The notes below the pieces were generated by a model, which saw nothing but the letters and a program-made list of their open reading frames with translations, made no database searches and was not told the origin of the DNA. From the IMG/VR virus record IMGVR_UViG_3300042328_000969, positions 1-58,275 of that record: 58,275 nt of DNA; one strand, written 5' to 3'. Position 1 is the stretch's first letter, and each line of letters opens with the position of its first letter. The position numbers were made by a program, and so were the translations under genes. The DNA comes from a virus. Lineage: Duplodnaviria; Caudoviricetes. Of the stretch, positions 3,856-47,340 are shown one piece after another.

Positions 3856-5613
3856 CTATTTTGTTGGTGAAACTAAATTAGTAGCTGTTTTACCAGCACT
3901 TGTTTTAATAATAGCTGATGTTGCTGCGTAACGATTATAAACATCTTTAACATCTGATAAATATTTCATACTTGCTACATTAGCTAAAGATGCTTTTGTT
4001 GTAGCATTCATATCGGGTGTCAAATTATATTTTTGAATAGTATCATTATATTGAGCTGTTAATGTATCGACTGCCAAATTAGCTTGCTTTGTAGCGTCTA
4101 AATCACCAATTAATAAATCCCTAGTATGTTGAACTTGAGCAGCAATCTGGTCATTAACCATTTTCATACTATTATTAAATACGGCTAATTGCTTTTCATT
4201 TTCAAGCGTTTGCGTAGATTCTAATTGCTTAATAACTGCATCGGCTGCTTTTTGAGCAATAGTTATATTTCCACTAGTAATAAGTTGATAAAGTTGATCC
4301 GCATTTTTACGAGCATCACTTGCGCCATTAACTTTATCGTTAAGCATTGCGGTAGTAAACAAATTGGTCGCAGTATTGATAGCTTGAGTATTACTAGTAT
4401 CCACAGCAATTTTATTAGCGGCATTCCAATTCTGAACTTGAATATCGTTCTGAGCCTGTCTATCCATACTGGTAGCTTTAAGATTAAGACCAGTATTGAG
4501 CAATTGATTTTGAGCCTGTGCATTGGCTTCATTGGCTTTTTGTCTAGCTAATGCGTCTTGTTGTGCAATCGGCAATGCGGCTTTAATCGCTGCGTCTTGA
4601 GCAAATCCCGCAGCAGCGCCTGTATTAAGCATACCTCTACGCGATGCTTGCAGATTAGCCGCATTAACAGCTTGCTGGATATAAGGATTGTTCTTGGCAA
4701 GTAATCCCGATAACTGGTTAGATACCATTGAATCCGGTGTTACATTAACCTCAGCGGCTTTAGCAGCGTCTACCATCTTGGTAACATCAGCCGCTGAATT
4801 TGGATTGACAATAGTAGTTGGCGCACCTACTTTAGCAACATTGAGCATTCCCTTATCAATCATATCTTGATTGATACCTGCTCCTATAGTGCTATTTATA
4901 GGATTACCATTAACATCAAATCCACCGCCTAATTTTTTAGTATCAAGTGGCGCAGTGGCATTTTTTAATTTTAAAGCATTTGCAGTTTCTAGTGCTTGCT
5001 GATTTGCTAAATCTGTTGCTGTTGCTTCCTTAGTAGCCGTAGCATTTGCAGCAATTGCATCGGCATCAGCTTTTGCTTTAGCATCCGCTGCTATCTTAGC
5101 TTCTTCTTGAGTTTTAGCATCCGCCACTGCTTTATCCGCAATAGTTTGCGCTTGTGTTTTTTGAGCAGCCCATCTAGGGTTGTCTTGTGGATTAGATAAT
5201 AATTTATTAAGTTCAGTATCGTAAGTAGAGCCTTTTGCTGTACTTGTCCATTGAACAGGTTTATTTGTTATCGGATCAATATAATCATTAGCTAAAACAT
5301 CTTTTGCCCATGCTAATTTAGTATCATTTAATTTCTGATAAGCAGGATTATAAACTGCCTTATTACCAGTTTGAGTTAAATCTAAAAGTGTTTGTTGATC
5401 TAATAAAGGGTTTCCATACGCATCGGTCATTTTTCCATAACCGCTTAATGTATTGTATAACCCATAATCATTTGGATTATTAGTTTTTGCTTTATTAAGT
5501 AAATCTTCATACCCTGTTACATAAGCAGGATCAAAAGTTTGCGTTGCCGTAGTTGGTTTTTGTACAGGTGTTCCAGACCGCAACCCCGCTGCTATTTCTT
5601 CTATAGTTGCCAT
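3856..5613 (-). CDS. Putative internal virion / DNA ejection protein
   Basis: 585 aa, Ala/Gln/Asn-rich and helical, with an ASRRGMLNTGAAAG motif; lies downstream of the tail tubular genes. Confidence 0.6.
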   Translation of the reverse strand: MATIEEIAAGLRSGTPVQKPTTATQTFDPAYVTGYEDLLNKAKTNNPNDYGLYNTLSGYGKMTDAYGNPLLDQQTLLDLTQTGNKAVYNPAYQKLNDTKLAWAKDVLANDYIDPITNKPVQWTSTAKGSTYDTELNKLLSNPQDNPRWAAQKTQAQTIADKAVADAKTQEEAKIAADAKAKADADAIAANATATKEATATDLANQQALETANALKLKNATAPLDTKKLGGGFDVNGNPINSTIGAGINQDMIDKGMLNVAKVGAPTTIVNPNSAADVTKMVDAAKAAEVNVTPDSMVSNQLSGLLAKNNPYIQQAVNAANLQASRRGMLNTGAAAGFAQDAAIKAALPIAQQDALARQKANEANAQAQNQLLNTGLNLKATSMDRQAQNDIQVQNWNAANKIAVDTSNTQAINTATNLFTTAMLNDKVNGASDARKNADQLYQLITSGNITIAQKAADAVIKQLESTQTLENEKQLAVFNNSMKMVNDQIAAQVQHTRDLLIGDLDATKQANLAVDTLTAQYNDTIQKYNLTPDMNATTKASLANVASMKYLSDVKDVYNRYAATSAIIKTSAGKTATNLVSPTK

Positions 5614-42839: not shown

Positions 42840-44636
42840 ATGAATACTTACATTATTGACACTGAGTGTTATAAAAACTATTGGTTATTTTTAGCCGTTA
42901 ACCACAAAACAGGTACATCGCTTGAAATAGAATTATTTGGCGAAGATGCAAAGTTAAATGAGCAGCAAGCCAAAAAGATACAGCGCCTATTTCTTAATCA
43001 TGAAACCGTTTCATTCAATGGGTTAAACTACGATATACCTGTTATACATGGCGCATTGGACGCATGGGATTGCTCAAAATTACACAAACTTTCCACAAAA
43101 ATAATCACAGATCAGCGCGTTACTTGGCAGATACTCAAAGAGCATAACCTCCAAGTCCCCACTTACGATAAACATATCGACATTATCGAAATCCCCATTG
43201 GACAGGCATCGCTTAAAATTTACGGTGGACGTATTCACACGCAGAAAATGCAAGACTTGCCAATTGATCCTAATGCGTTAATAAAAGATACTGAGCGTAG
43301 TTTGATGCGCAAGTATTGCAGAAACGATACGCAAGTTACAGGTGAACTGTTTGACAAGCTCAAAGGGCAGATAGACTTGCGCAAAGAGATGACACAGCAA
43401 TACGGTATCAACCTTAATTCAAAATCCGATGCGCAAATTGCTGAAACTATTATAAAATCAGAACTTTACGAGAAAACTGGCGAGCATTATCGTGCCACAA
43501 AGTTTGATGATAAATACACGTTTACTTATCGAAATCCAGATATTATTCAGTTTAAAACACAGGAACTCTGCGACATTTTTGACCAGCTAATTTATGAAAC
43601 CTTCACGCTAAAAGATAACGGTAGTGTTGAATTGCCTAAATGGTTAAGCGAACCTATTAAAATCGGCAATGCGTCATATCAAATGGGCATTGGTGGATTA
43701 CATTCACGCGAAGTTGAGCAACACATTAAATCCAGCAGTGGTTACTTTTTATCTGATTTTGATGTTGCCAGTTACTACCCATCAATTATCCTGCATCAAA
43801 GGTTATTTCCAGAATCAATGGGAGAGAATTTCCTTAACCTATATCGAGAGATTGTAAAAAAACGTATTACAGCGAAACACACAGGCGATAAAGTTACTGC
43901 CGATACACTTAAAATCGTACTCAACGGGAGTTTTGGTAAATTCGGTAGTAAATACAGTAGCTTATACTCACCACAATTACTCCTGCAAACAACAATCACT
44001 GGTCAGCTATCACTTCTCATGCTGATTGAAGAACTTGAATTAAACGGTATTCGCGTAGTTAGTGCAAACACCGATGGGATTGTGACGTATTACCACGAAA
44101 GTCAAATACCTACGCTACAAGATATTCTATTTAATTGGGAAATTCAAACCAGCTATACGCTAGAGCAAACCGATTACCGTGAACTGGCATCGCGTGATGT
44201 AAATAACTATATTGCCGTGAAGCTCGACGGTAAAACTAAATGTAAAGGGTGCTTTGGTGAAGCGTCAATGAGTAAAAACCCAGATGGTTTAATCATCTAT
44301 GAGGCGGTTGCTAAATTTATCGCTGACGGTACACCAATTGAAAAAACCGTTACCGAGTGTGAGGATATTAGAAAGTTTGTCACAGTTCGCAGAGTTACCG
44401 GTGGCGCATTGTTTAGAGGGGAGTATCTTGGTAAAGCAGTTCGCTTTTATCACAGTTGCGATTTAGGTCTTGTTGATATGTCACTTGTTTATGCAAAGAA
44501 TGGAAACAAAGTCCCGATGTCACAAGGCTGTCGTCCATTGATGAATTTGCCAAATGCTTTTCCAGAGGATGTTAATTTTTATTATTACTACACTAAGGCA
44601 AATGAAGTGTTAAAAGGTGTTGGCTACAAAGAATAG
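42840..44636 (+). CDS. DNA polymerase, family B-like
   Basis: Exonuclease IDTE and FNGLNYD; DVASYYP; LKIVLNGSFGK; SANTDG. Confidence 0.9.
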   Translation: MNTYIIDTECYKNYWLFLAVNHKTGTSLEIELFGEDAKLNEQQAKKIQRLFLNHETVSFNGLNYDIPVIHGALDAWDCSKLHKLSTKIITDQRVTWQILKEHNLQVPTYDKHIDIIEIPIGQASLKIYGGRIHTQKMQDLPIDPNALIKDTERSLMRKYCRNDTQVTGELFDKLKGQIDLRKEMTQQYGINLNSKSDAQIAETIIKSELYEKTGEHYRATKFDDKYTFTYRNPDIIQFKTQELCDIFDQLIYETFTLKDNGSVELPKWLSEPIKIGNASYQMGIGGLHSREVEQHIKSSSGYFLSDFDVASYYPSIILHQRLFPESMGENFLNLYREIVKKRITAKHTGDKVTADTLKIVLNGSFGKFGSKYSSLYSPQLLLQTTITGQLSLLMLIEELELNGIRVVSANTDGIVTYYHESQIPTLQDILFNWEIQTSYTLEQTDYRELASRDVNNYIAVKLDGKTKCKGCFGEASMSKNPDGLIIYEAVAKFIADGTPIEKTVTECEDIRKFVTVRRVTGGALFRGEYLGKAVRFYHSCDLGLVDMSLVYAKNGNKVPMSQGCRPLMNLPNAFPEDVNFYYYYTKANEVLKGVGYKE

Positions 44637-44687
44637 AAACTCACGATAATTTTTTCGTTTGAGTTTATTTTACATTGAGGAATAAAA

Positions 44688-44987
44688 ATGCTTGAAAAAG
44701 AAATTGAAAAATACCTGTGCGATCAAATTAAAAAAGTAGGTGGAACGTGTGAAAAATTTACATCGCCCAATCGTCGCTCAGTCCCAGATCGTTTAATTAC
44801 TTTACCATTTCAGCCGATATTTTTTGTTGAATGCAAAGCGCCTAAAAAGAAACCCACTGAAGCACAAGAACGCGATCATCAAAGACGACGCGAGATGGGC
44901 GTCCATGTCTATGTCATTGACTCAAAAGAAAGCGTTGATACTTTATTGCTTTATCGATTACCAGTGGAAGGCGATTATGCGCACTAG
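44688..44987 (+). CDS. VRR-NUC domain nuclease
   Basis: EKEIE...KFTSP...VPDR...FVECK...Q. Confidence 0.9.
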   Translation: MLEKEIEKYLCDQIKKVGGTCEKFTSPNRRSVPDRLITLPFQPIFFVECKAPKKKPTEAQERDHQRRREMGVHVYVIDSKESVDTLLLYRLPVEGDYAH

Positions 44988-47148
44988 AGCAGAACTCCGT
45001 CATTACCAAGTCAGAACCTCCTCGTTTCAAATTGAACAAGAGCGAACACTTTGTGCGCTTAAAATGGGGATGGGGAAAACAGCTTCTACGCTCACTACAA
45101 TCCACGATTTAATTGATGCTTGTGTGATTACCAAAGCACTTGTTATCGCGCCACTGAGAGTAGCTAATAGCGTCTGGGCGCAAGAAGCAAAGGAATGGGA
45201 ACATCTCAAAGATTTAAAATTCAAAATATGTACAGGCACAGAGCAAAAGCGCCTAGCCGCCTTGCACCATGATGCGGATGTTTATGTTATTAATCGAGAA
45301 AACGTGGTCTGGTTAGTGAATCACTATAGGGATAAGTTCCCCTTTCAAATGGTGGTGGTAGATGAGTGTTTTCCAGAGGGTACAATGATATTGACCCCTA
45401 CAGGACTTCGTGATATAAAAACTCTTGAAATTGGAGAATCTGTAATAACTTCAATTGGAGAAAAACCTATTACTAATATCTTTAAAAAAGAATCTTATGA
45501 CCTTATCAAATTATATTTATCAGACGGAACAAGTATTGAATGTACAGGAAATCATCCTTTTGCAACAGAAAAGGGGTGGATTCAAGCACGGGGATGTCGG
45601 GGTTTGCATTTTGTGCGGAACAATCTATATGAAACGCAAATTAACTCATCAGTTATGCAGCCGGTCTTGTTCAAAAAAACATATGCACAATATCAGAACA
45701 GAAGAACACAAAAAAGAAGTCATAGAAAAAACTTCAAAAACAGCAAAAAAGAATTACGCATCTGGACAAAGAACCACTTGGAACAAAGGGTTAGAATGGT
45801 CAGACGAAGTAAAACAAAAATTAAGTTTAGCTCACAAACTTTCTGGGCATCAACCAATTGTGCGCGGAGGGAATGGGAAAATTTCAGAATGCGAGAAGAT
45901 GATGAGGGAAATCTTACCGTCAGAATGGATAATGCAGTGTGCAATACCCACAAAAATGGGAAGAACCAGTGGCTATCCAACTTGCTACAAAGTAGATTTC
46001 GGAATTCCGCAAAAGAAAATTGCGTTAGAAGTAGATGGAAACTCTCACAGATCGCGAAAGCGGTTGGACGAAAAGAAAGATACCTTTCTTCAATCGTTAG
46101 GGTGGACAGTATTGAGAATATCCAACAATCGCGCTCAAGAAATGTATTCAATTTACAAATTAACGGGATCAATGATTATTTTGCCAACGGAATTTTAGTA
46201 CACAATTGCTCCAGCTTTAAAAGTGATAAAAGTAAACGTGTCAAAGCACTGCGCAAAGCATTACCTTATGTTCACTACATCACTCTACTGACAGGTACAC
46301 CCTCACCCAATGGCTTACTCGACCTGTGGTCACAATGCTATTTAGTAGATAACGGAAAAGCGCTTGGGCGAACCATGACTATGTATAAAAGCCGATTCTT
46401 TGAACAGGATTATAGCGGTTACAAATACACCCCTCGCAAAGATTCACAAAAGAAAATTGAAGCATTGATAGCGCCATTTACCATATCAATGGAAACAAGT
46501 GATTACCTTGATATGCCAGACTACATTGAATTATATGAAGAAATTCAATTAGAACCTGCGGTAATATCTAAATACAAGCAGTTTGAAAAAACACTATATC
46601 TTGATTTTGAAAATAGCGAAGTTGAAGCATTAAGCGCAGCGACACTTGCCAATAAGTTATTGCAGTATTGCGCTGGTGCTGTGTACGTCGATGAGTTTAA
46701 AAACTATGAAATAGTCCATGATGCAAAACTTGATGCGCTTGCAGACATTATTGAGCAGAACGATGGGGAGAATATCCTTGTTGCCTATAACTTCAAAAGC
46801 GATCTTGAGCGACTACTTAAACGCTTTCCAGACGGGCGAGTTCTCGATAAGCATCAAAGCACTATTGATGAATGGAACAATGGCGAAATACCCCTTCTAT
46901 TTGCGCATCCTCAATCAGCCGGTCACGGTCTTAATATCCAACACGGTGGTAGCATGATTGTGTGGTTTTCACTGAGCTGGAGTTTGGAGTATTACCAGCA
47001 GTTTAATGCTCGATTGTACCGGCAAGGACAGACTATGGCGGTAAGGATTATCCACTTAATCTGCAAAGGCTGCATTGACGAGCGAATCATTAACGTATTG
47101 AAAGATAAAGATATTGTGCAATCTGACTTACTTCGTGCATTAAAATAA
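44977..47148 (+). CDS. SNF2-like helicase containing an intein
   Basis: LRHYQ, MGMGKT, VVVDE|intein|CSSFK, LTGTP, GHGLNIQ, QFNARLYRQGQ; likely start ATG 44977. Confidence 0.92.
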   Translation: MRTRAELRHYQVRTSSFQIEQERTLCALKMGMGKTASTLTTIHDLIDACVITKALVIAPLRVANSVWAQEAKEWEHLKDLKFKICTGTEQKRLAALHHDADVYVINRENVVWLVNHYRDKFPFQMVVVDECFPEGTMILTPTGLRDIKTLEIGESVITSIGEKPITNIFKKESYDLIKLYLSDGTSIECTGNHPFATEKGWIQARGCRGLHFVRNNLYETQINSSVMQPVLFKKTYAQYQNRRTQKRSHRKNFKNSKKELRIWTKNHLEQRVRMVRRSKTKIKFSSQTFWASTNCARREWENFRMREDDEGNLTVRMDNAVCNTHKNGKNQWLSNLLQSRFRNSAKENCVRSRWKLSQIAKAVGRKERYLSSIVRVDSIENIQQSRSRNVFNLQINGINDYFANGILVHNCSSFKSDKSKRVKALRKALPYVHYITLLTGTPSPNGLLDLWSQCYLVDNGKALGRTMTMYKSRFFEQDYSGYKYTPRKDSQKKIEALIAPFTISMETSDYLDMPDYIELYEEIQLEPAVISKYKQFEKTLYLDFENSEVEALSAATLANKLLQYCAGAVYVDEFKNYEIVHDAKLDALADIIEQNDGENILVAYNFKSDLERLLKRFPDGRVLDKHQSTIDEWNNGEIPLLFAHPQSAGHGLNIQHGGSMIVWFSLSWSLEYYQQFNARLYRQGQTMAVRIIHLICKGCIDERIINVLKDKDIVQSDLLRALK
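45367..46206 (+). mobile_element. Intein (280 aa) in helicase Walker B
   Basis: Block A CFPEGT, block B CTGNHPF, block F VFNLQING, block G YFANGILVHN, +1 Cys. Confidence 0.92.
45497..46198 (+). CDS. Vsr/DUF559-like (EDxHD-type) homing endonuclease overprinted in the +1 frame of the intein
   Basis: CxxC...CxxxC, NUMOD3-like WNKGLEWSDEVKQKLSLAHK, SECE, YKVDF, ALEVDGNSH...D, GWTVLRI. Start uncertain (TTG 45455, ATG 45497 or later). Confidence 0.85.
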   Translation: MTLSNYIYQTEQVLNVQEIILLQQKRGGFKHGDVGVCILCGTIYMKRKLTHQLCSRSCSKKHMHNIRTEEHKKEVIEKTSKTAKKNYASGQRTTWNKGLEWSDEVKQKLSLAHKLSGHQPIVRGGNGKISECEKMMREILPSEWIMQCAIPTKMGRTSGYPTCYKVDFGIPQKKIALEVDGNSHRSRKRLDEKKDTFLQSLGWTVLRISNNRAQEMYSIYKLTGSMIILPTEF

Positions 47149-47160
47149 GTTAAGTTAAGG

Positions 47161-47188
47161 TTGACTGAGGGGATAAAATCAATAAAAT
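47161..47188 (+). promoter_or_regulatory. Sigma70-type promoter (TTGACT-16-TAAAAT) preceded by GTTAAGTTAAG
   Basis: Motif match upstream of a small-gene cluster; 10-bp hairpin at 47218-47251. Confidence 0.5.
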
Positions 47189-47340
47189 AGCTTCACGGTT
47201 TCTCGAAACAAAAAAATCCTACTGCCCCAAAGGAATAAACAGGCAGTAGGAATAGAGTCGAGGAGTCTAACACATGAACGCATTTCAAACAGTTGGAGTG
47301 GAATGCAAAGTGAGTATAACACAAACAAGAGGTTATATAA

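What the first reader, a model, noticed from the sequence alone, without database searches (positions are those of the whole stretch)
45367..46206. Contiguous intein whose homing endonuclease is a separate gene overprinted in the +1 frame
Seen: the helicase Walker B (VVVDE|CSSFK) is interrupted by a 280-aa intein with intact blocks A, B, F and G and a +1 Cys. Between blocks B and F the intein frame reads as Arg/Lys-rich, domain-less sequence but has no stop for roughly 180 codons. The +1 frame over the same DNA (to TAG 46196-46198) encodes a zinc finger, a NUMOD3-like motif and a Vsr/DUF559-type nuclease (ALEVDGNSH...D...GWTVLRI). Established: inteins normally carry their endonuclease in frame, and Vsr-like (EDxHD) nucleases are known as free-standing genes between the halves of split inteins in fractured phage genes. 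Inference: both frames are under selection, so this is a dual-coding mobile element whose nuclease is made independently of splicing. It could be an intermediate between cis inteins and fractured split-intein loci.
Basis: partly seen in the sequence, partly recalled or inferred. Interest (0 to 1): 0.92.

Follow-up and report, generated by a model that had tools for sequence, protein, structure and literature searches.

The report
Helicase intein with overprinted homing endonuclease
A lake-phage helicase gene carries a self-splicing intein whose middle also encodes, one base out of step, a separate DNA-cutting homing enzyme. The double coding is real and kept by selection, but it belongs to a large family and the general layout is already in print.

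Summary
The SNF2-type helicase ORF is interrupted after Walker B (VVVDE|C) by a 280-aa class-1 intein at 45367-46206. The +1 frame holds a DUF559/Vsr-like (EDxHD-type) nuclease ORF ending at TAG 46196-46198.

The dual coding is selected. Among 63 distinct IMG/VR relatives with the intein frame open, 0 of 3035 nuclease codons that could create an intein-frame stop end in T. At other positions 1938 of 7702 do. Between close relatives, substitutions in the overlap fall on the nuclease's third codon position (23/5/3). In the exteins they fall on the helicase's.

The nuclease frame folds confidently (pLDDT 85; I-Bth0305I Z 8.6). The intein-frame middle is disordered (pLDDT about 45).

The element is mobile. 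Its DNA is 94% identical between helicases that are only about 59% identical. Also, 22 of 29 close helicase alleles lack it, and both alleles coexist in single lake metagenomes.

How the nuclease is translated is inferred, not shown.

Out-of-frame intein endonucleases are already described (Gorbalenya 1998, as cited; 2025-26 preprints). This scan has also met this same family in at least 57 other genomes. My searches found no printed report of a same-strand +1 EDxHD version, so I rate it a new variant of a known kind.

The parts
44977..47148 (+). SNF2-type helicase gene (precursor of 723 aa with intein; the start at ATG 44977 is inferred)
   Evidence: ORF. Pfam SNF2-rel_dom, DEAD, ResIII and Helicase_C. 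Homologous alleles begin IMRTRAEL....
44977..45366 (+). N-extein, ending in Walker B / motif II ...MVVVDE
   Evidence: DE|C is invariant in 63 of 63 aligned relatives.
45367..46206 (+). Contiguous class-1 intein, 280 aa (C1 ... VHN, +1 Cys at 46207)
   Evidence: C1, H63, V278, H279 and N280 are invariant in 60 aligned inteins.
45367..45621 (+). N-terminal splicing lobe (intein aa 1-85, blocks A-B)
   Evidence: AF2 pLDDT is 95-98 for aa 1-80. Substitutions are mostly at intein-frame position 3.
45622..46086 (+). Intein-frame linker (aa 86-240): stop-free, Arg/Lys-rich, predicted disordered, with no amino-acid constraint detected
   Evidence: pLDDT is about 41-63. Substitution phase is 23/5/3. 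Of 31 differences, 20 are non-synonymous here but synonymous in the nuclease frame.
46087..46206 (+). C-terminal splicing lobe (intein aa 241-280, blocks F-G)
   Evidence: pLDDT is 88-97. VHN is invariant.
45497..46198 (+). Homing endonuclease ORF in the +1 frame (233 aa from ATG 45497; alternative start TTG 45560 preceded by AGGA 45546-45549), wholly inside the intein
   Evidence: ATG 45497 is conserved in L021 and L022, and L022 has AGGA 9 nt upstream. Pfam DUF559.
45605..45670 (+). CxxC...CSxxC zinc-finger-like motif of the nuclease (+1 frame)
   Evidence: Read. The CxxC / CSxxC consensus is seen in 65 aligned nucleases. Two short strands are predicted, with pLDDT above 90.
45875..46165 (+). 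Vsr-like / EDxHD catalytic domain of the nuclease (+1 frame; model residues 106-202)
   Evidence: VIA-align: 3hrl Z 8.8, 3r3p_A (I-Bth0305I) Z 8.6, Vsr 1cw0 Z 7.2. G160, H163 and K173 are invariant; E157, D159 and D170 are conserved in at least 90%.
46196..46198 (+). TAG stop of the nuclease, built into the block G codons (I-L-V of GILVHN)
   Evidence: In most relatives the nuclease ORF also ends in or next to blocks F-G.
46207..47148 (+). C-extein (CSSFK...; remainder of the helicase, with stop)

Best explanation
The locus is a composite selfish element inserted after the Walker B Asp-Glu of a lake-phage SNF2 helicase. Its outer part is a class-1 intein.

The helicase mRNA is read straight through the intein frame. 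The two splicing lobes (aa 1-85 and 241-280) are joined by a disordered linker of about 155 residues. Splicing restores the helicase as ...VVVDE-CSSFK....

The same DNA, read one base later, encodes a 21-25 kDa EDxHD/Vsr-like homing endonuclease with an N-terminal zinc-finger-like DNA-binding region and a C-terminal catalytic domain. This protein is most likely made by internal initiation on the helicase mRNA, at ATG 45497 or TTG 45560.

The endonuclease would cut intein-less helicase alleles, which read ...IDESSSFK.... Repair from the intein-bearing copy would then paste in intein plus nuclease together with a few flanking extein bases.

Because the helicase must be read through, every nuclease codon that precedes an AA-, AG- or GA-starting codon is barred from ending in T. 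That keeps the intein frame open at almost no cost to the nuclease protein.

Shown here: dual open frames, frame-specific selection, folds, family-wide conservation, sporadic distribution and intein/extein discordance.

Inferred: splicing, the nuclease start site and mode of translation, cleavage specificity, and homing.
For: Domains: Intein_splicing sits in the helicase frame and DUF559 in the +1 frame.

Conservation of the layout:
- In 4 of 4 GenBank phages examined, out of 46 matching records (MR14, 159E43-1b, CP-T1, 1.194.O), the nuclease match starts 1 mod 3 into one long annotated helicase CDS.
- In IMG/VR, 140 relatives were found and the best 80 kept. In 76 of 80 the frame one base upstream is open across the whole match, inside a 504-2091 aa ORF. 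The third frame is never open.
- In 26 of 26 bacterial/archaeal genome-contig relatives that frame is open, but one of them (L141) actually carries the nuclease in frame.

Stop avoidance: 0 of 3035 risk codons end in T, against 1938 of 7702 elsewhere, over 63 distinct sequences. Free-standing relatives L053 and L082 have 24 of 59 and 13 of 47.

Intein identity: 60 of 63 intein-frame segments hit Intein_splicing, 62 of 63 have C1...HN + C/S, and DE|C is invariant.

Selection, window against L021, as differences at helicase-frame positions 1/2/3:
- Exteins: 41/27/81 and 42/26/77.
- Overlap core: 23/5/3 (binomial p = 1.5e-7).
- In the core, 23 of 31 differences are synonymous for the nuclease and 5 of 31 for the intein frame.
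- Nuclease-frame amino-acid identity is 110/160 against 79/160 for the intein frame at 68% divergence.

Structure:
- The nuclease model has pLDDT 85, with Z 8.6 to I-Bth0305I and 8.8 to 3hrl.
- The intein-frame model has pLDDT 95-98 in the lobes and about 45 in the middle.

Mobility:
- Intein DNA identity is 789/840, against about 59% in the flanking 360-nt exteins.
- Of 29 close N-extein relatives, 6 carry the intein, 22 lack it and 1 is truncated.
- Differences cluster within about 10 nt on each side of the insertion point.
- Intein-plus contigs and intein-skipping joints occur in the same runs X2, X3 and X6.

Translation: many relatives have an ATG 2-13 codons before the CxxC with AGGAG, GAGG or AGGAGG 7-9 nt upstream, for example L038, L057, L031, L055 and L072.
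Against: There is no expression, protein, splicing or cleavage data for this or any family member.

The window's own nuclease has no ATG close to the zinc finger. ATG 45497 lacks a Shine-Dalgarno match. TTG 45560 has AGGA at a long 10-nt spacing, and that AGGA is lost in L022.

No sigma-70-like promoter lies upstream of the nuclease ORF.

Foldseek E-values were weak (best 1.9e-3), and VIA Z values of 8-9 lie in the range the tool calls middling.

The substitution tests rest on three sequences (window, L021, L022).

The extein identities come from ungapped 360-nt flanks.
Confidence: 0.85

Rival explanations
1. The dual-coding DNA is the same, but the nuclease is not initiated independently. It is reached by a programmed +1 ribosomal frameshift from the intein frame. 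This would give an N-extein/intein-N-lobe/nuclease fusion that ends at TAG 46196.
For: The window group has no well-placed ATG with a Shine-Dalgarno site before the zinc finger. No internal promoter was found. The +1 frame is open from 45449, well upstream of the conserved nuclease part.
Against: Many relatives carry an ATG with AGGAG, GAGG or AGGAGG 7-9 nt upstream, just before the CxxC. In L038, L040 and L072 the +1 open stretch begins with that ATG itself, so in those a frameshift upstream is impossible. The free-standing homologues L053 and L082 start at an ATG in the equivalent position. No conserved slippery site was looked for or seen.
Confidence: 0.07
2. The nuclease ORF in this window is a recently inactivated or non-expressed relic. 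The intein frame stays open only because the helicase is needed, and the +1 frame looks conserved only because the element is young.
For: The homing-cycle model predicts endonuclease decay after fixation (established knowledge; discussed in 10.64898/2026.09.14.751524, section 17). The start codon context in the window is weak.
Against: The near-invariant catalytic columns E157, D159, H163 and D170 are all present in the window. At 68% amino-acid identity (L022) the nuclease frame still shows a third-position excess of 66/37/35. It shows 50 changes that are silent for the nuclease only, against 21 silent for the intein frame only. The element is not fixed: 22 of 29 close alleles are empty and both forms coexist in single samples. 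The intein is 94% identical across exteins that are about 59% identical, which implies recent transfer.
Confidence: 0.07
3. This is a sequencing or assembly artefact: two compensating indels hide an ordinary in-frame intein endonuclease.
For: This is the default suspicion for a metagenome contig. One family member (L042) does show a frame break near the intein's 3' end. One genome (L141) truly has the nuclease in frame.
Against: No inserted or deleted letters appear in contigs from four independent runs. Six other IMG/VR contigs carry an identical sequence. The same +1 offset appears in 76 of 80 viral loci and in four cultured-phage genomes. The count of 0 of 3035 T-ending risk codons would be pointless if the intein frame were not read through the core.
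Confidence: 0.01

Closest known systems
Non-canonical inteins with the homing endonuclease outside the intein frame. Sources: actinobacteriophage survey, bioRxiv 10.1101/2025.01.02.630785 (passages read); cyanobacterial dnaX intein with a +2-frame LAGLIDADG ORF, bioRxiv 10.64898/2026.09.14.751524 (abstract and sections 11, 14, 17 read); Gorbalenya 1998 (seen only as cited in those two).
   Same: The intein is contiguous and its central region is stop-free but disordered in the intein frame. A folded endonuclease is encoded by an overlapping ORF. Selection is frame-dependent, with low constraint in the intein frame and purifying selection in the HEG frame. Distribution is sporadic and suggests ongoing transfer. 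A secondary invasion of a mini-intein by a free-standing HEG is the proposed origin.
   Different: The overlapping gene here is an EDxHD/Vsr-like nuclease on the same strand in the +1 frame. The preprints report VSR-like HEGs only antisense, an Endo VII-like HEG in 'frame 3', and a LAGLIDADG HEG in +2. The hosts here are SF2/SNF2 helicases (and a few clamp-loader-like ATPases) at the Walker B DE site, in phages of Vibrio, Pseudomonas and uncultured lake, soil and gut viruses. The preprint's non-canonical inteins sit in polymerase, capsid, terminase and thymidylate synthase genes.
Fractured genes: split inteins with a free-standing Vsr-like or GIY-YIG endonuclease gene between the halves (Dassa et al. 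2009, PMC2677866; passages read)
   Same: Both have the same kind of nuclease (Vsr-like, later named EDxHD). Both sit in phage DNA-metabolism genes, including helicases. In both the endonuclease is a separate gene and not an intein domain, and the endonuclease 3' end overlaps the downstream intein coding sequence.
   Different: Here the host gene and the intein are not broken. One ORF runs through, there is no stop after the N-lobe, and there is no start before the C-lobe. The nuclease is fully nested in an overlapping frame and does not lie between two genes.
I-Bth0305I, prototype EDxHD homing endonuclease (PMC3239194, passages read; PDB 3r3p)
   Same: The catalytic domain has a Vsr-like fold (Z 8.6, rmsd 3.1, 80 residues aligned, 26% identity). 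The domain order is the same: DNA-binding region at the N terminus and nuclease at the C terminus.
   Different: I-Bth0305I is encoded in a group I intron of a phage recA gene and has two NUMOD2 repeats. The window's protein lies inside an intein, has a CxxC...CSxxC motif at its N terminus, and gave no Pfam NUMOD match.
ShiLan 'hidden' out-of-frame HNH endonuclease in a phage methylase (PMC11855218; abstract and section 22 read)
   Same: A homing endonuclease gene is overprinted out of frame on an insertion that is read through in the host gene's frame. The question of how it is translated is equally open.
   Different: The ShiLan insertion has no intein splicing domains. Here the insertion is a bona fide intein.

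Membership tests
Class-1 intein (HINT splicing domain) | Profile match to the intein splicing domain above the curated threshold | tested here: met
   Pfam Intein_splicing, 39.4 bits against a cut-off of 35.8, E 6.9e-10, aa 31-280.
Class-1 intein (HINT splicing domain) | Cys/Ser at position 1, block B TxxH, C-terminal His-Asn, and Cys/Ser/Thr at +1 | tested here: met
   C1, T-G-N-H63, H279-N280 and +1 Cys. C1, H63, V278, H279 and N280 are invariant in 60 aligned relatives.
Class-1 intein (HINT splicing domain) | HINT fold of the two lobes | tested here: inconclusive
   AF2 gives an all-beta model with pLDDT 95-98 for aa 1-85 and 241-280. This model was not fold-searched against solved inteins.
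Class-1 intein (HINT splicing domain) | Autocatalytic protein splicing | not testable with these tools
   Inferred only. Complete and cultured phages (CP-T1, MR14) carry the interrupted helicase as their only copy in the stretches seen.
EDxHD / Vsr-like homing endonucleases (I-Bth0305I family; Pfam DUF559) | Profile match to DUF559 above the threshold | tested here: met
   41.3 bits against a cut-off of 20.6, E 1.5e-10, in the +1 frame.
EDxHD / Vsr-like homing endonucleases (I-Bth0305I family; Pfam DUF559) | Vsr-like nuclease fold | tested here: met
   VIA-align: 3hrl Z 8.8, 3r3p_A Z 8.6, 1cw0 Z 7.2, 1vsr Z 6.6, over model residues about 106-202. Foldseek probability is 1.00 for 3r3p, but E is only 2.1e-3.
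EDxHD / Vsr-like homing endonucleases (I-Bth0305I family; Pfam DUF559) | Conserved acidic/His catalytic motif (E, D, H, D) | tested here: met
   The window reads ...ALEVDGNSH...LDEKKD.... In 65 aligned nucleases H163 is invariant and E157, D159 and D170 are conserved in at least 90%. Assigning these columns to the published EDxHD residues is by analogy. It was not checked by a residue-level superposition.
EDxHD / Vsr-like homing endonucleases (I-Bth0305I family; Pfam DUF559) | N-terminal NUMOD-type DNA-binding modules | tested here: inconclusive
   No NUMOD family was listed at E<=1. A CxxC...CSxxC motif and helices 35-94 are predicted with high confidence.
EDxHD / Vsr-like homing endonucleases (I-Bth0305I family; Pfam DUF559) | Site-specific cleavage of the element-free allele | not testable with these tools
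   Support is indirect only: sporadic presence, flank co-variation and intein/extein discordance.
Non-canonical inteins with an overlapping, out-of-frame endonuclease gene | Endonuclease ORF overlaps the intein's central region in another frame while the intein frame stays open | tested here: met
   (76 of 80 loci); 0 of 3035 T-ending risk codons.
Non-canonical inteins with an overlapping, out-of-frame endonuclease gene | Frame-dependent selection, with the HEG frame constrained and the intein frame relaxed in the overlap | tested here: met
   Phase counts are 23/5/3 in the core against 41/27/81 in the extein. In the core, 23 of 31 differences are synonymous for the nuclease against 5 of 31 for the intein frame.
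Non-canonical inteins with an overlapping, out-of-frame endonuclease gene | Intein-frame middle unstructured, HEG frame folded | tested here: met
   pLDDT is about 45 against 85.
Fractured genes (split intein plus free-standing HEG; Dassa 2009) | Host gene and intein broken into two separately translated ORFs | tested here: not met
   One uninterrupted ORF runs 44824-47148. The same holds in 76 of 80 viral relatives.
Fractured genes (split intein plus free-standing HEG; Dassa 2009) | Vsr-like or GIY-YIG endonuclease gene as a separate gene inside the intein locus | tested here: met
   A separate +1 ORF with a DUF559 domain.

The most novel reading that the evidence does not exclude
One EDxHD nuclease lineage is caught in all the states through which inteins are thought to gain and lose endonucleases:
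- Free-standing next to an intein-less helicase (L053, L082).
- Nested in the +1 frame of a contiguous intein. This is the dominant, long-lived state, seen here and in about 90 distinct loci.
- Fused in frame as a true intein domain (Singulisphaera chromosome, L141).
- By earlier literature, sitting between split-intein halves.

On this reading the +1-nested form is a stable two-gene symbiosis and not a fleeting intermediate. It is specialised on the Walker B Asp-Glu codons of many unrelated P-loop NTPases. It could be the reservoir from which both fractured genes and in-frame EDxHD inteins arise. That would give direct support to the 'splicing domain first, endonuclease later' model.
Probability: 0.35. 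Interest if true: 0.6.

Novelty: new variant of a known kind. Interest (0 to 1): 0.45.

Why it matters
Gene callers annotate only the long helicase ORF, as in all four GenBank phages checked. The endonucleases of this large family are therefore invisible in databases, and the inteins look like 'mini' or 'decaying' inteins.

The family gives a clean, quantifiable example of overprinting. One frame is held only by stop avoidance: 0 of 3035 T-ending codons at risk positions. This is a simple rule that could be used to find more such elements.

The lake-phage population around this window holds empty and occupied alleles side by side. It also holds two further helicase inteins, each with its own +1-frame HNH gene. 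That makes it a natural system for studying homing dynamics.

The free-standing, nested and in-frame relatives bear on how inteins acquire endonucleases and how split inteins arise.

The splicing lobes joined by a long disordered linker may also interest protein engineers.

Tried and rejected
Searches and tests that gave nothing or little:
- Megablast of 44688-47148 against GenBank phages found no match, so no close cultured relative is known.
- Pfam listed no NUMOD family for the +1 protein at E<=1.
- Foldseek against the PDB gave no match at E<=0.001. The best was 1.9e-3 to a mitoribosomal protein, and 3r3p scored 2.1e-3. I therefore used VIA-align.
- phmmer against PDB sequences found only 3hrl (E 2.3e-4) and a weak zinc-finger match.
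- The promoter scan of 44600-47300 found 4 sigma-70-like sites, against 7.0 expected from shuffles. None lies upstream of the nuclease start, so no internal promoter is claimed.
- Expression: no RNA holder was listed.
- Pfam gave nothing for the +1 ORFs of the two other helicase inteins. PHROGs then named them HNH endonucleases.

Limits of my own scripts:
- My motif search for the intein C-end missed several loci. The alignment-based boundaries replaced it.
- In one search my script labelled the 22 intein-less alleles '?' because it expected DECSSF. The printed sequences read DESSSFK straight through.
- The tree used the quick method, LG+G4 and a midpoint root. Its rows are the best hits to a query built from nested nucleases. 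It therefore cannot give a direction (free-standing first or nested first), and I draw none beyond 'scattered'.

Considered and rejected:
- Assembly artefact (see rivals).
- A split or fractured gene, because the ORF is continuous.
- An in-frame endonuclease domain in this window, because the nuclease frame has stops upstream of 45449.

Not used: the search for homologous proteins, the search of protein representatives, complex prediction, the protein-atlas search and the Rfam tools.

Literature limits:
- Supplementary files of papers were closed. Supplemental Table 1 and the supplemental figures of 10.1101/2025.01.02.630785 might list further VSR-like arrangements that I could not see.
- Gorbalenya 1998 was not read. 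I know it only as cited.
- The claim that a same-strand +1 EDxHD intein is not in print rests on searches only.


Full report
WHAT IS THERE

The window is a 58,275-bp IMG/VR virus record rated complete. An ORF at 44824-47148 (+), with a likely start at ATG 44977, encodes an SNF2/DEAD-type helicase (Pfam SNF2-rel_dom, DEAD, ResIII, Helicase_C).

After the Walker B residues VVVDE, the frame continues without a stop through 280 codons (45367-46206). These begin CFPEGT and end GILVHN, and are followed by CSSFK. This stretch matches Pfam Intein_splicing above its curated cut-off (39.4 against 35.8 bits).

The +1 frame is open from 45449 to TAG 46196-46198. It matches DUF559 (41.3 against 20.6 bits). 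The third frame is full of stops. Only the 'NUMOD3-like' motif was not confirmed.

IT IS NOT CHANCE AND NOT AN ARTEFACT

A stop in the intein frame can arise only where a nuclease codon ending in T is followed by a codon starting AA, AG or GA. In the window's nuclease, 0 of 60 such 'risk' codons end in T, against 41 of 141 elsewhere. Synonymous shuffling gave a mean of 11.1 intein-frame stops, and 0 of 2000 shuffles were stop-free (row L015, identical to the window).

Contigs from four independent lake-metagenome runs cover 45200-46400 with no inserted or deleted letters. Six other IMG/VR contigs hold an identical nuclease.

THE LAYOUT IS A FAMILY TRAIT

A tblastn search of the +1 protein against GenBank phages found 46 records. 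I examined four: Pseudomonas phage MR14 and Vibrio phages 159E43-1b, CP-T1 and 1.194.O. In all four the match lies inside one long annotated helicase CDS, offset by 1 mod 3. Each CDS reads ...QDE|CFPAGT...VVVHN|CHH....

A profile search of IMG/VR found 140 relatives, of which the best 80 were kept.
- In 76 of 80 the frame one base upstream is open across the whole match and belongs to an ORF of 504-2091 aa. The other frame is never open.
- Over the 63 distinct sequences with that frame open, 0 of 3035 risk codons end in T, against 1938 of 7702 (25%) elsewhere.
- The free-standing relatives L053 and L082 have 24 of 59 and 13 of 47.

The intein-frame segments behave as inteins in helicase-type hosts.
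- 60 of 63 match Intein_splicing.
- 62 of 63 have C1...HN followed by C or S. The exception, L042, has a frame break near the 3' end.
- The junction DE|C is invariant.
- Host domains are ResIII (33), DEAD (9), SNF2 (7) and, in three, clamp-loader-type ATPases.

In bacterial and archaeal genome contigs, 26 of 26 relatives also have that frame open. One of them is really an in-frame case (see below).

WHICH FRAME IS UNDER SELECTION

L021 (nuclease 95% identical) and L022 (68%) have gap-free 840-nt inteins. The counts below are differences at helicase-frame codon positions 1/2/3.

| Comparison | Region | Differences at positions 1/2/3 |
|---|---|---|
| Window vs L021 | N-extein | 41/27/81 |
| Window vs L021 | C-extein | 42/26/77 |
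| Window vs L021 | Intein aa 1-75 | 4/2/10 |
| Window vs L021 | Intein aa 76-235 (core) | 23/5/3 |
| Window vs L022 | Intein aa 76-235 (core) | 66/37/35 |

In the core of window vs L021, the variable position is the nuclease's third position (binomial p = 1.5e-7). Of those 31 core differences, 23 are synonymous for the nuclease and only 5 for the intein frame.

Against L022, amino-acid identity over the core is 110/160 in the nuclease frame and 79/160 in the intein frame.

So the nuclease is under amino-acid-level purifying selection. In the core, the intein frame shows only the ban on stops.

STRUCTURE

With a 65-row alignment, the +1 protein folds with mean pLDDT 85. Its C-terminal domain (model residues about 106-202) aligns as follows:
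- DUF559 structure 3hrl: Z 8.8.
- Catalytic domain of the EDxHD homing endonuclease I-Bth0305I (3r3p): Z 8.6, 26% identity.
- Vsr: Z 7.2 (1cw0) and 6.6 (1vsr).

Foldseek E-values were weak.

In 65 aligned nucleases, G160, H163 and K173 are invariant, and E157, D159 and D170 are conserved in at least 90%.

The intein-frame protein, with 60 rows, has pLDDT 95-98 for aa 1-85 and 241-280, and about 45 for aa 90-240. That is two splicing lobes joined by a disordered linker.

THE ELEMENT MOVES

- Window and L021 share 789/840 intein bases, but only about 59% of the adjoining 360 extein bases on each side.
- Of 29 IMG/VR loci whose N-extein is 89-100% identical to the window's, 6 carry the intein and 22 read ...IDESSSFK... 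straight through. One is truncated.
- Occupied and empty alleles differ by a cluster of substitutions within about 10 nt of the insertion point, including Ser to Cys at +1 and Ile to Val at -3. They are otherwise nearly identical. This fits co-conversion and/or target immunity.
- Runs X2, X3 and X6 hold both a contig through the intein and a contig that skips 855-859 bases at exactly this site. Both alleles therefore coexist in one lake sample.

HOW THE NUCLEASE IS MADE (INFERRED)

Many relatives have an ATG 2-13 codons before the first CxxC, with AGGAG, GAGG or AGGAGG 7-9 nt upstream (for example L038, L057, L031, L055, L072). In L055 and L072 the GAGG is supplied by the Asp-Glu-Val codons of the intein frame.

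The window group is less clear. ATG 45497 is conserved in L021 and L022, but only L022 has an AGGA before it. TTG 45560 has AGGA 10 nt upstream in the window and in L021.

No internal sigma-70-like promoter was found. Internal initiation on the helicase mRNA is the most likely route. A programmed frameshift is not excluded.

COMPARISON WITH WHAT IS KNOWN

Endonuclease genes that overlap inteins out of frame or antisense are already described.
- Gorbalenya 1998 (known to me only as cited).
- An actinobacteriophage survey that reports antisense LAGLIDADG, antisense VSR-like and 'frame 3' Endo VII-like genes. It states that VSR-like nucleases were otherwise known only with split inteins (10.1101/2025.01.02.630785, passages).
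- The cyanobacterial dnaX intein with a +2-frame LAGLIDADG gene, which shows the same frame-dependent selection (10.64898/2026.09.14.751524).

Dassa et al. 2009 described the same nuclease type as a free-standing gene between split-intein halves (PMC2677866).

My four literature searches found no report of a same-strand +1 EDxHD gene in a contiguous helicase intein. This scan, however, has already recorded this same family in at least 57 other genomes. I consulted those notes only after reaching my reading.

The locus is therefore a new variant of a known kind, and one more member of a family this scan has seen often.

THE 'INTERMEDIATE' IDEA

Relatives exist in several other states.
- Free-standing, immediately upstream of an intein-less helicase gene (L053, L082).
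- Upstream of a large ORF I did not identify (L094).
- Fused in frame inside the intein of a UvrD-type helicase in a Singulisphaera chromosome (L141). That is one 817-aa ORF with UvrD-helicase, Intein_splicing aa 243-538 and DUF559 aa 427-490.

On a quick tree, the four free-standing forms are scattered among 61 nested ones. The nested state thus looks like the stable norm and not a passing stage. The sampling is biased and the tree is unrooted, so no direction is claimed.

VERDICT

The mechanism of translation and all biochemical activities remain inferred. Interest is moderate: the case is well supported and tidy, but the principle is published and the family has been met repeatedly.

Noticed in passing
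L141:1846-4299 (+), Singulisphaera sp. PoT chromosome NZ_CP186274.1: An intein at the Walker B site (IDE|C) of a UvrD-type helicase carries the same DUF559/Vsr-like nuclease domain IN FRAME. It is one 817-aa ORF with UvrD-helicase, Intein_splicing (aa 243-538) and DUF559 (aa 427-490), and it lacks the N-terminal zinc-finger part. The papers I read report Vsr-like nucleases only with split inteins or antisense.
   Followed up: partly
L100:4102-5010 (intein) with +1 ORF 4268-4939; L022:4580-5542 (intein) with +1 ORF 4800-5474: Close relatives of the window's helicase carry two further inteins at other sites (AHP|...|SAGHG and LLQY|C...). Each has a junk-like middle in the intein frame. Each also has a +1-frame ORF of about 224 aa that PHROGs names an HNH endonuclease (phrog_3377 and phrog_374, E 1e-41 to 1e-60). 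Pfam found nothing for these ORFs. L022 has two inteins in one helicase.
   Followed up: partly
L095-L122: Helicase alleles in this lake-phage population come in at least four forms. Measured from the match start they are 444-445 aa with no intein (7 loci), 723-724 aa with the Walker B intein (6 loci) and 747 aa (7 loci). Only L100 among the 747-aa loci was checked, and it has the AHP-site intein. L022 has two inteins. Eight loci run off their contigs.
   Followed up: partly
L053:3358-3999 and L082:3489-4172: Free-standing homologues of the nuclease start at an ATG just before the CxxC. Each overlaps the start of an intein-less DEAH-type helicase gene immediately downstream. Their risk codons end in T at normal rates: 24 of 59 and 13 of 47.
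   Followed up: partly
L042:131-2637: One family member has the helicase/intein reading frame broken near the intein's 3' end, so that the C-lobe and C-extein continue in another frame. This may be a sequencing error, a decaying copy or an incipient split. It was not resolved.
   Followed up: no
window 44688-44987 (+) and 42840-44636 (+): The gene just upstream of the helicase (99 aa) matches phrog_93 'endonuclease' (E 4e-28) and a Holliday-junction-resolvase phrog. It overlaps the likely helicase start by 11 nt. The gene before it is a 598-aa protein with a weak DNA_pol_B_2 match (E 3.2e-4, below the cut-off).
   Followed up: no
A2 members: Three of 63 intein-frame segments sit in clamp-loader-type ATPases (DNA_pol3_delta2, DNAX_ATPase_lid, AAA) and not in helicases. 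They are still at a DE|C junction. The element family has therefore crossed between unrelated P-loop NTPases that share the Walker B motif.
   Followed up: no
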